A stretch of 52,875 nucleotides of DNA, the filler included, from Squatina squatina (taxonomy: Eukaryota), in NCBI GenBank assembly GCA_031763465.1. It is 3 parts of 3 records of this genome, joined end to end, with 100 filler letters (N's around TTAATTAATTAA, not from the genome) between each part and the next. Parts side by side here need not be neighbours in the genome. Positions count along the whole stretch, not along the records: positions 1 to 18,229 come from JARFOE010000046.1; 2 more parts are not named here. The stretch is one strand, 5' to 3'. Position 1 is the first letter of the stretch, and every line of letters begins with the position of its first letter. Below the pieces are notes generated by a model that did no database searches, was not told where the DNA came from, and worked only from the letters and a program-made list of their open reading frames with translations. Positions 14,141-14,589 of the stretch are shown piece by piece. The position numbers and the translations under genes are program-made.

Positions 14141-14589
14141 CTATAGATGGTATTTCCGCAGCAGTTCTAGTTGCCATGGATATTTTCGCTCTGGGAACCT
14201 GTCAGGTATTTTAATTTTTAGAAAATCTTGGATGCATTTCTCTAACTCTTCTTCAATTGTCAGTTTCTCTTTGACTTTCTTTTTGCACGTATTGGATTCG
14301 CGGGACGCACTGGTGAGTGTCCTTAAGAGATCACTTTTCCTGCGGAATTCGCTTTGCTGCACTTGCTGCACAGGCCCTTTCTTGACTGGCCGGTCCAGTG
14401 TCTGGATGTTGGGTTGCCGGGTCACTGGACCGCAGATCACTGTCTCCTGTGGGGAGCTGGCCTCAGACTGGCTGTCGCAGCTCGAGGTGGACAGTTCATT
14501 GCAGGACGTTACACTTTCTCCNNNNNNNNNNNNTTTATCATTTCAGCAACCACATTCACCCTGTGGTGAGGGCCATCGGGAAGAACCAC
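14141..14589 (-). CDS. KCTD16: KCTD16 last coding exon (linker plus H2 domain), with an in-frame TGA at 14543-14545
   Basis: Acceptor tttttccag at 14590-14598, phase 1. Reads (R)[73 protein letters not shown]...[37 protein letters not shown], matching the KCTD16 C-terminus as recalled. Confidence 0.95.

What the first reader, a model, noticed from the sequence alone, without database searches (positions are those of the whole stretch)
14141..14589. In-frame TGA in KCTD16 directly upstream of an intact H2 domain
Seen: 15 codons into the last exon the frame reads ...GECGC-TGA-NDK (TGA at 14543-14545). The next ~133 codons are open and closely match KCTD16 to the normal stop. The 12-N gap equals the 4 codons expected from the human alignment, so the frame is fixed from both sides. 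Established: KCTD8/12/12b/16 are GABA-B receptor auxiliary subunits; the H2 domain of KCTD8/16 opposes desensitisation, and KCTD12/12b lack H2. Inference: a real stop here would escape exon-junction NMD and give an H2-less KCTD16, paralleling KCTD12. The conserved H2 sequence implies either a very recent nonsense allele (for example CGA>TGA) or stop-codon readthrough producing H2+ and H2- forms. Caveat: the TGA is only 9 nt from a gap edge and its UGA-A context is a weak readthrough context, so a base-call error is quite plausible.
Basis: partly seen in the sequence, partly recalled or inferred. Interest (0 to 1): 0.72.

Follow-up and report, generated by a model that had tools for sequence, protein, structure and literature searches.

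The report
Likely false stop in shark KCTD16
A premature stop codon in a shark gene for a GABA-B receptor helper protein (KCTD16) sits at the ragged end of an assembly fragment, is missing from every relative checked and is most likely a sequencing error, although sharks and rays are predicted to make a shortened form of this protein through a separate alternative exon.

Summary
The TGA is in the sequence (14545-14543, minus strand, codon 15 of the last KCTD16 exon, 9 nt from a 12-N gap, then 133 open codons). It is not conserved: contigs of 4 of 4 related organisms read AGA (Arg), not CGA, and 22 of 22 annotated cartilaginous-fish species have a sense codon. The H2 part shows purifying selection (pN/pS 0.06-0.16). 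The assembly is faulty in this gene: exon 1 begins with KCTD12b sequence. Against this reading, 18 other coding gap edges were not error-rich, and no reads of this individual are available. Verdict: bad single-read contig tail about 92%, real private allele 7%, readthrough or selenocysteine 1%. By-product: the intron holds a short alternative exon (R-LPTTLCAPL-stop) matching predicted H2-less isoforms of 8 shark, ray and skate species, so H2+/H2- forms probably arise by splicing. The scan had no earlier KCTD16 note.

The parts
14141..14589 (-). Last coding exon of KCTD16 (phase-1 acceptor, Cys cluster, linker, H2 region, normal TAG at 14143-14141)
   Evidence: splice junction in relatives' contigs, table 7
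14590..14630 (-). AG acceptor and polypyrimidine tract with T9, T5 and T5 runs; the window has one base more at 14594 than both DNA contigs of relatives
   Evidence: table 4, 51
14558..14560 (-). GGT (Gly) where 4 of 4 relatives read TGT (Cys); window-only change 27 nt from the gap edge
   Evidence: Cys in 19 of 19 and 22 of 22 species
14549..14551 (-). GGT where 4 of 4 relatives read GGC (silent); window-only change 16 nt from the gap edge
14543..14545 (-). The TGA; 4 of 4 relatives read AGA (Arg); changed base 12 nt from the gap edge; context TGA-AAT
14522..14533 (.). 12-N gap between two separately assembled pieces; relatives have exactly 12 bases here
   Evidence: table 8 (no gap there), 47
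14141..14521 (-). Intact 126-codon linker and H2 region on the neighbouring piece, under purifying selection
   Evidence: 98% to sawshark; pN/pS 0.057-0.163 against four relatives

Best explanation
The TGA is most likely a base-call error in the poorly covered tail of one assembly fragment, and the real codon is likely AGA (Arg) in an ordinary full-length KCTD16. Shown: three window-only substitutions fall within 16 nt, in the last 27 nt before a coverage gap, with none in the preceding 29 coding bases; two of them hit conserved residues (Cys>Gly, Arg>stop). Inferred: coverage falls to about one read at the gap, and a minus-strand read ending there would first have crossed the T9/T5/T5 runs of the acceptor, which favours a low-quality tail that the assembler could not correct.
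For:: contigs of 4 of 4 runs (organisms A-D, four studies, 95-99% alike) read AGA, GGC and TGT at the three places; 22 of 22 species have Cys where the window has Gly, and R (19), L (2) or S (1) at the TGA; 3 differences in 27 nt against 7 in the other 410 coding nt (Fisher p=0.019); 2 radical changes in 8 invariant columns at this edge against 0 in 159 at 18 other edges (p=0.002). H2 region pN/pS 0.057-0.163, no decay; exon 1 of the same gene starts with 30 residues 93% like shark KCTD12b and 55% like KCTD16; the KCTD12b locus lacks that piece and the true KCTD16 start lies on an unplaced contig; in a chemokine-receptor gene a piece tail overlaps the next piece with 1 mismatch in 24 nt, then runs into foreign sequence with a TGA 27 nt from the gap; a TAAR-like ORF has a lone TGA 13 nt from a gap; median piece length 969 nt (68 pieces).
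Against: Gap edges are not error-rich in general: 4 private changes in 159 invariant columns within 30 nt of 18 other edges against 29 in 1551 interior columns (p=0.54). In the GPCR set only 2 of 7 non-intronic stop cases lie within 30 nt of a gap (binomial P about 0.06) and two lone stops lie 574 and 870 nt from any edge. No run of this individual or species is held (best share of words 0.68), so the base was never seen in reads. The four relatives share a derived base at 14286 that the window lacks, so they may be a sister group and do not fix the ancestral codon of this lineage. The p-values are post hoc, for a site picked because it holds a stop.
Confidence: 0.92

Rival explanations
1. A real, very recent nonsense allele (heterozygous or fixed in this lineage) that arose with two neighbouring changes in one clustered mutation; being in the last exon it would escape junction-based decay and give a KCTD16 cut at residue 294 of 427, without H2.
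For: The sequence shows it; other gap edges are mostly clean; a recent allele would leave H2 undecayed; the Arg position varies in rays and skates (S, L); H2-less isoforms are predicted in relatives, so such a product may be tolerated.
Against: Needs three substitutions in 16 nt, one at an invariant Cys, that happen to lie in the last 27 nt before a coverage gap; AGA>TGA is a transversion, not CpG decay; none of 22 species or 4 runs shares any of the three changes.
Confidence: 0.07
2. Programmed stop-codon readthrough or selenocysteine insertion at the TGA gives H2+ and H2- forms.
For: The frame after the TGA is open and conserved; the codon sits beside a Cys cluster.
Against: The stop is not conserved. 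The context is TGA-AAT, not the leaky UGA-CUAG (motif recalled). The codon aligns with R/K/S/L/T, never Cys, in 19 of 19 proteins. No SECIS among 4 weak Rfam matches in 11084-14700 (that stretch holds a gap).
Confidence: 0.01

Closest known systems
Elasmobranch KCTD16 (sawshark UniRef100_UPI00398EAB74; catshark XP_038651753.1; horn shark XP_067899114.1)
   Same: 98% identity over the 126 residues after the gap (sawshark); same phase-1 junction after YTEYLFYR; BTB (PF02214) and H1 (PF23110) in exon 1; same genomic layout
   Different: The window reads Gly and stop where all of them read Cys and a sense residue; exon 1 in this assembly starts with KCTD12b sequence
False premature stop codons in short-read assemblies (Kim et al. 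2022, PMC9516821; passages read)
   Same: One of the eight listed kinds of false gene loss; tied there to low coverage and base-call errors, with Ns in coding sequence frequent
   Different: That study checked reads; here no reads of the individual exist. It reports premature stops as among the least frequent kinds
Mammalian KCTD12/KCTD12b, the H2-less desensitising GABA-B subunits (PMC8121548, PMC6566181, PMC10456889; passages read)
   Same: A product cut at the TGA, or the alternative-exon isoform, would have BTB + H1 and no H2
   Different: Shark KCTD16 H1 reads YRQLER, not T/NFLEQ, so desensitisation is not expected to follow (motif role recalled); shark KCTD12b keeps an H2-like tail in its long isoform
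Conserved UGA-CUAG readthrough genes such as OPRL1 and AQP4 (recalled; an OPRL1 case in this genome is noted in e1-9111406)
   Same: UGA followed by a conserved open frame
   Different: Stop not conserved, no CUAG, and the downstream part is ordinary coding sequence in all relatives
RefSeq-predicted short KCTD16 isoforms of elasmobranchs (e.g. XP_078087715.1, XP_048399873.1, XP_032885233.1, XP_062909391.1)
   Same: End in ...FYR-LPTTLCAP[L/Q/P]-stop; the same exon with an AG acceptor in the right phase lies in this genome's KCTD16 intron
   Different: They arise by splicing about 19 kb upstream of the TGA and have nothing to do with it; predicted models, no protein evidence seen

Membership tests
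KCTD16 orthologue | Last exon best matches KCTD16 and is single-copy | tested here: met
   98% to sawshark KCTD16; one match in G000
KCTD16 orthologue | BTB + H1 exon upstream on the same strand, phase-1 intron after YTEYLFYR | tested here: met
   C46:3613238-3613964 minus strand; H1 end 100% identical; first 30 residues are KCTD12b-derived
Programmed stop-codon readthrough | Stop codon conserved across related species | tested here: not met
   AGA in 4 of 4 runs; sense residue in 22 of 22 species
Programmed stop-codon readthrough | Leaky context (UGA-CUAG or UGA-C; recalled) | tested here: not met
   TGA-AAT
Programmed stop-codon readthrough | Measured readthrough or peptides beyond the stop | not testable with these tools
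   needs reporter, ribosome profiling or mass spectrometry
Selenoprotein | UGA aligns with Cys/Sec in homologues | tested here: not met
   R, K, S, L or T in 19 of 19
Selenoprotein | SECIS in the 3' UTR | tested here: inconclusive
   none in 11084-14700 at E up to 5; the stretch holds a 100-N gap and the UTR end is unknown
Real nonsense allele or young pseudogene | Relaxed selection downstream of the stop | tested here: not met
   pN/pS 0.057-0.163; excludes an old loss, not a very recent one
Real nonsense allele or young pseudogene | Supported by several independent reads of the individual | not testable with these tools
   no run of this individual or species listed
Contig-end base-call error | Cluster of private differences at a fragment end | tested here: met
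   3 in the last 27 nt, none in the 29 coding nt before
Contig-end base-call error | Fragment ends in this assembly are generally error-rich | tested here: not met
   4 of 159 against 29 of 1551
Contig-end base-call error | Some fragment ends in this assembly are demonstrably wrong | tested here: met
   chemokine-receptor tail contradicted by the overlapping next piece; KCTD12b piece at the start of the KCTD16 exon-1 fragment
KCTD12-like desensitising subunit | T/NFLEQ motif in H1 (recalled from Seddik 2012) | tested here: not met
   YRQLER 19, HRQLER 1 of 20 cartilaginous-fish KCTD16; YRQLER in G000

The most novel reading that the evidence does not exclude
The TGA is noise, but sharks, rays and skates do switch the H2 domain of KCTD16 on and off: a conserved alternative exon inside the large intron (R-LPTTLCAP[L/Q/P]-stop) replaces the Cys cluster and H2 with a nine-residue tail ending in a CaaX-like Cys, giving a translated H2-less GABA-B auxiliary subunit that has persisted since the shark-ray split.
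Probability: 0.5. Interest if true: 0.4.

Novelty: not a real feature. Interest (0 to 1): 0.12.

Why it matters
If the stop were real and read through, it would add a regulated H2+/H2- switch to GABA-B signalling; the data exclude that as a conserved mechanism. As an error it is a caution: stops and radical changes within a few dozen bases of gaps in this assembly should not be read as gene loss, and paralogue chimeras occur in it. The by-product matters modestly: a conserved alternative exon would let one test, with a natural isoform, what H2 does in KCTD16 (Ca2+ and HCN channel binding according to the PMC10456889 passage) apart from desensitisation.

Tried and rejected
Raw-read check of the TGA: no run of this individual or species was listed (best share 0.68) and no RNA holder listed on record; 4 of the 24 listed runs were laid, all contigs of relatives. 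Second copy or pseudogene as source of the odd 27 nt: one match only for each flank and for the protein; unassembled copies cannot be excluded. Selenocysteine: rejected. CpG decay CGA>TGA: not supported. Dovetail overlaps as a direct error measure: 1 of 75 gaps had an overlap, without mismatch, so uninformative. The motif tally at the foot was out of register and is not used; counts come from the 33 listed proteins, leaving out the 10 short isoforms and Pristis X2, which lack this part of the exon. In one search two rows (Y278P, R279G) are alignment run-over into the intron and were dropped; 1 of the 4 edge changes and 4 of the 29 interior changes lie in the KCTD12b-derived piece and were kept. 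The cadherin exon at 34173-36827 was not used as a control (no orthologues held). The Dynein_C match to the H2 region is below its cut-off and was ignored. Seddik 2012, Fritzius 2017 and Zheng 2019 are not held, so nothing was read of them. Literature searches for a shark or alternatively spliced H2-less KCTD16 gave no such paper among listings; most subscription journals are not covered, and no supplements were read. Direct RNA support for the alternative-exon junction remains untested.

Full report
Observation. On the minus strand the last coding exon of KCTD16 starts at 14589 and reads [17 protein letters not shown], then 12 N, then GESVT...RKYHL*. The TGA is at 14545-14543, nine bases from the N run at 14522-14533, and 133 open codons follow to the normal TAG. 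The 126 residues after the gap are 98% identical to sawshark KCTD16. Each flank has one match in the genome, at C46:3578190-3578749.

The assembly. The window is cut by N runs about every kilobase (median piece 969 nt over 68 pieces). Of 8 sized gaps inside coding sequence, 5 equal the length expected from orthologues (6, 12, 108, 159, 527), two 10-N runs stand for 9 and 44 nt, and a 93-N run stands for 59 nt, offsetting its 10-N neighbour. I infer that separately assembled pieces were placed and sized on a reference. The exact 12-N is therefore not extra support for anything; it marks 12 bases that no assembled piece covers.

Relatives at the DNA level. No run of this individual or species is held (best share of words 0.68). 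I laid 4 of the 24 listed runs, from four organisms and four studies. All four read AGA at the TGA, GGC at the silent site 14549 and TGT (Cys) at 14560, and span the gap without an indel. So there are three window-only changes in 16 nt, in the last 27 nt of the piece, and none in the 29 coding bases before them. The other 410 coding bases hold 7 differences from all four (Fisher p=0.019, post hoc); at one of these (14286) the window agrees with sawshark and chimaera, so the four relatives may be a sister group. Two of the contigs run on from 14589 into exon-1 sequence, confirming the junction (table 7).

Relatives at the protein level. Among 22 cartilaginous-fish species with this exon annotated, all have Cys where the window has Gly, and R (19), L (2) or S (1) at the TGA. 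In 19 aligned vertebrate proteins the Cys is invariant and the TGA column is R, K, S, L or T. Protein databases favour open frames, so the DNA result above carries more weight. The H2 region shows purifying selection against each relative (pN/pS 0.114, 0.095, 0.163, 0.057), which excludes an old loss but not a very recent one.

Controls for the error reading. I compared ANKRD50L (in the window), ANKRD50, KCTD16 exon 1 and KCTD12b with shark and ray orthologues. Against my reading, gap edges are not generally error-rich: 4 private changes in 159 invariant columns within 30 nt of 18 edges, against 29 in 1551 interior columns (p=0.54). For it, the KCTD16 edge is an outlier, with 2 radical changes in 8 columns against 0 in 159 (p=0.002); 3 of the 4 radical interior changes lie 31-57 nt from an edge (post hoc). 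Of 149 GPCR matches in the genome 11 contain stops; I examined all 11. By my reading 4 are run-ons into introns, 2 are interior frame breaks, 1 is a decayed TAAR, 2 are lone interior stops (574 and 870 nt from an edge) and 2 are TGAs 13 and 27 nt from a gap (2 of 7, binomial P about 0.06). One of the last is provably wrong: the piece tail overlaps the next piece with 1 mismatch in 24 nt and then runs into foreign sequence. KCTD16 itself is misassembled: the exon-1 piece begins with 30 residues 93% identical to shark KCTD12b and 55% to KCTD16, the KCTD12b locus lacks that part, and the true start lies on unplaced contig C805296; gene conversion is a less likely alternative that I did not test.

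Mechanism. Shown: a tight cluster of private changes at a coverage gap, absent from all relatives, beside an undecayed H2. Inferred: the last bases rest on about one read; a 150-base minus-strand read ending at 14534 would have crossed T9, T5 and T5 runs just before, and two of the three changes copy a neighbouring base, as phasing errors do (general knowledge; read length and direction are unknown). Bad tails are sporadic, which fits both the clean majority of edges and this burst. I put error at 0.92, a real recent clustered allele at 0.07 and readthrough or selenocysteine at 0.01. The last fails on conservation, context (TGA-AAT), alignment to non-Cys residues and lack of a SECIS match.

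What is known. Passages of PMC8121548, PMC6566181, PMC10456889 and PMC8699099 state that KCTD8 and 16 carry H2, that KCTD12/12b lack it and desensitise, and that H2 inhibits H1 and binds further partners. The primary papers were not held; the T/NFLEQ motif is recalled from Seddik 2012. Shark KCTD16 H1 reads YRQLER (19 of 20; HRQLER in chimaera) and KCTD12b reads FTFLEQ, so loss of H2 would not be expected to make KCTD16 act like KCTD12. Long shark KCTD12b isoforms keep an H2-like tail, so 'KCTD12b lacks H2' is not general. False premature stops are a listed class of short-read assembly error (PMC9516821 passages).

By-product. Eight predicted proteins from eight named species (Mobula hypostoma, M. 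birostris, Amblyraja, Leucoraja, Mustelus, Stegostoma, two Chiloscyllium) of the 22 held end in FYR-LPTTLCAP[L/Q/P] and lack H2. The same exon, with a pyrimidine tract, an AG acceptor in phase 1 and the reading R-LPTTLCAPL-stop, lies in this genome's KCTD16 intron at C46:3597787-3597756 and has one match in the genome. One relative's spliced contig begins 28 nt into exon 1; with the GT shared by both downstream exons that makes 30 nt, what a branch to this exon would give if contigs were built from 31-base words (table 7; inference, a weak hint). No poly(A) signal and only one weak donor-like site occur in the 588 nt before the next gap, so terminal versus poison exon is open. The C-terminal Cys at position -4 resembles a CaaX box, with an unfavourable Pro (recalled; untested). 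Five searches listed no paper on it, and the scan's notes hold nothing on KCTD16.

Verdict. It is very likely an assembly artefact. Interest 0.12, most of it from the alternative exon.

Noticed in passing
L016:5756-5787 minus (G000:C46:3597787-3597756), outside the window: Alternative KCTD16 exon reading R-LPTTLCAPL-stop with a phase-1 AG acceptor; matches predicted H2-less isoforms of eight elasmobranch species and ends in a CaaX-like Cys.
   Followed up: partly
L018:1444-1963 (G000:C46:3613444-3613963), L007, L020: KCTD16 exon-1 piece starts with about 30 KCTD12b residues; the KCTD12b locus on C57 lacks them and the true KCTD16 start is on unplaced C805296. Likely a paralogue chimera.
   Followed up: yes
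L007:1504-2010 (G000:C57:4862124-4862630): Shark KCTD12b has a GT donor after YTEYVFYR, and relatives' long isoforms (588-739 aa) end in an H2-like tail while also carrying FTFLEQ; KCTD12 (L006) stops right after H1.
   Followed up: partly
L038 (G000:C115:24957972-24959351, minus): Muscarinic-receptor-like ORF with a lone TAA in the third intracellular loop, 574 nt from the nearest gap.
   Followed up: no
L062 (G000:C4:7405621-7406268) and L061 (G000:C192:19607873-19607930): TAAR-like ORF with a lone TGA 13 nt from a gap; chemokine-receptor piece whose tail disagrees with the overlapping next piece and runs into foreign sequence.
   Followed up: yes
L054 (G000:C1:15776410-15776973), L059 (G000:C1105293:35-595), L060 (G000:C53208:604-1335): Serotonin-1A-like and alpha-1-adrenergic-like genes with interior frame breaks, and a GPCR with a lone interior TAG; errors or pseudogenes, names by resemblance recalled.
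   Followed up: no
window 40764-43564 minus: ANKRD50-like last exon, 93-100% to sawshark, in four pieces; the 10-N and 93-N gaps misplace the middle piece by 34 nt and mimic a frameshift.
   Followed up: yes
window 34173-36827 plus: Long cadherin-repeat exon with transmembrane and cytoplasmic part (Pfam Cadherin; dachsous-like by recalled C-terminal motif), open through 83-N and 16-N gaps.
   Followed up: no
window 43665-44861: Array of about 21-nt units (reads PETWANDPETW in one frame) upstream of the ANKRD50-like exon.
   Followed up: no
window 45940-46233 minus: WD40 last exon ending ...LLVLDFDVDMK (FBXW7-like, name recalled).
   Followed up: no
window 13823-13922: The 100-N gap in the KCTD16 3' UTR is flanked by the same 12 bases on both sides, i.e. 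two pieces that overlap and were not merged.
   Followed up: partly
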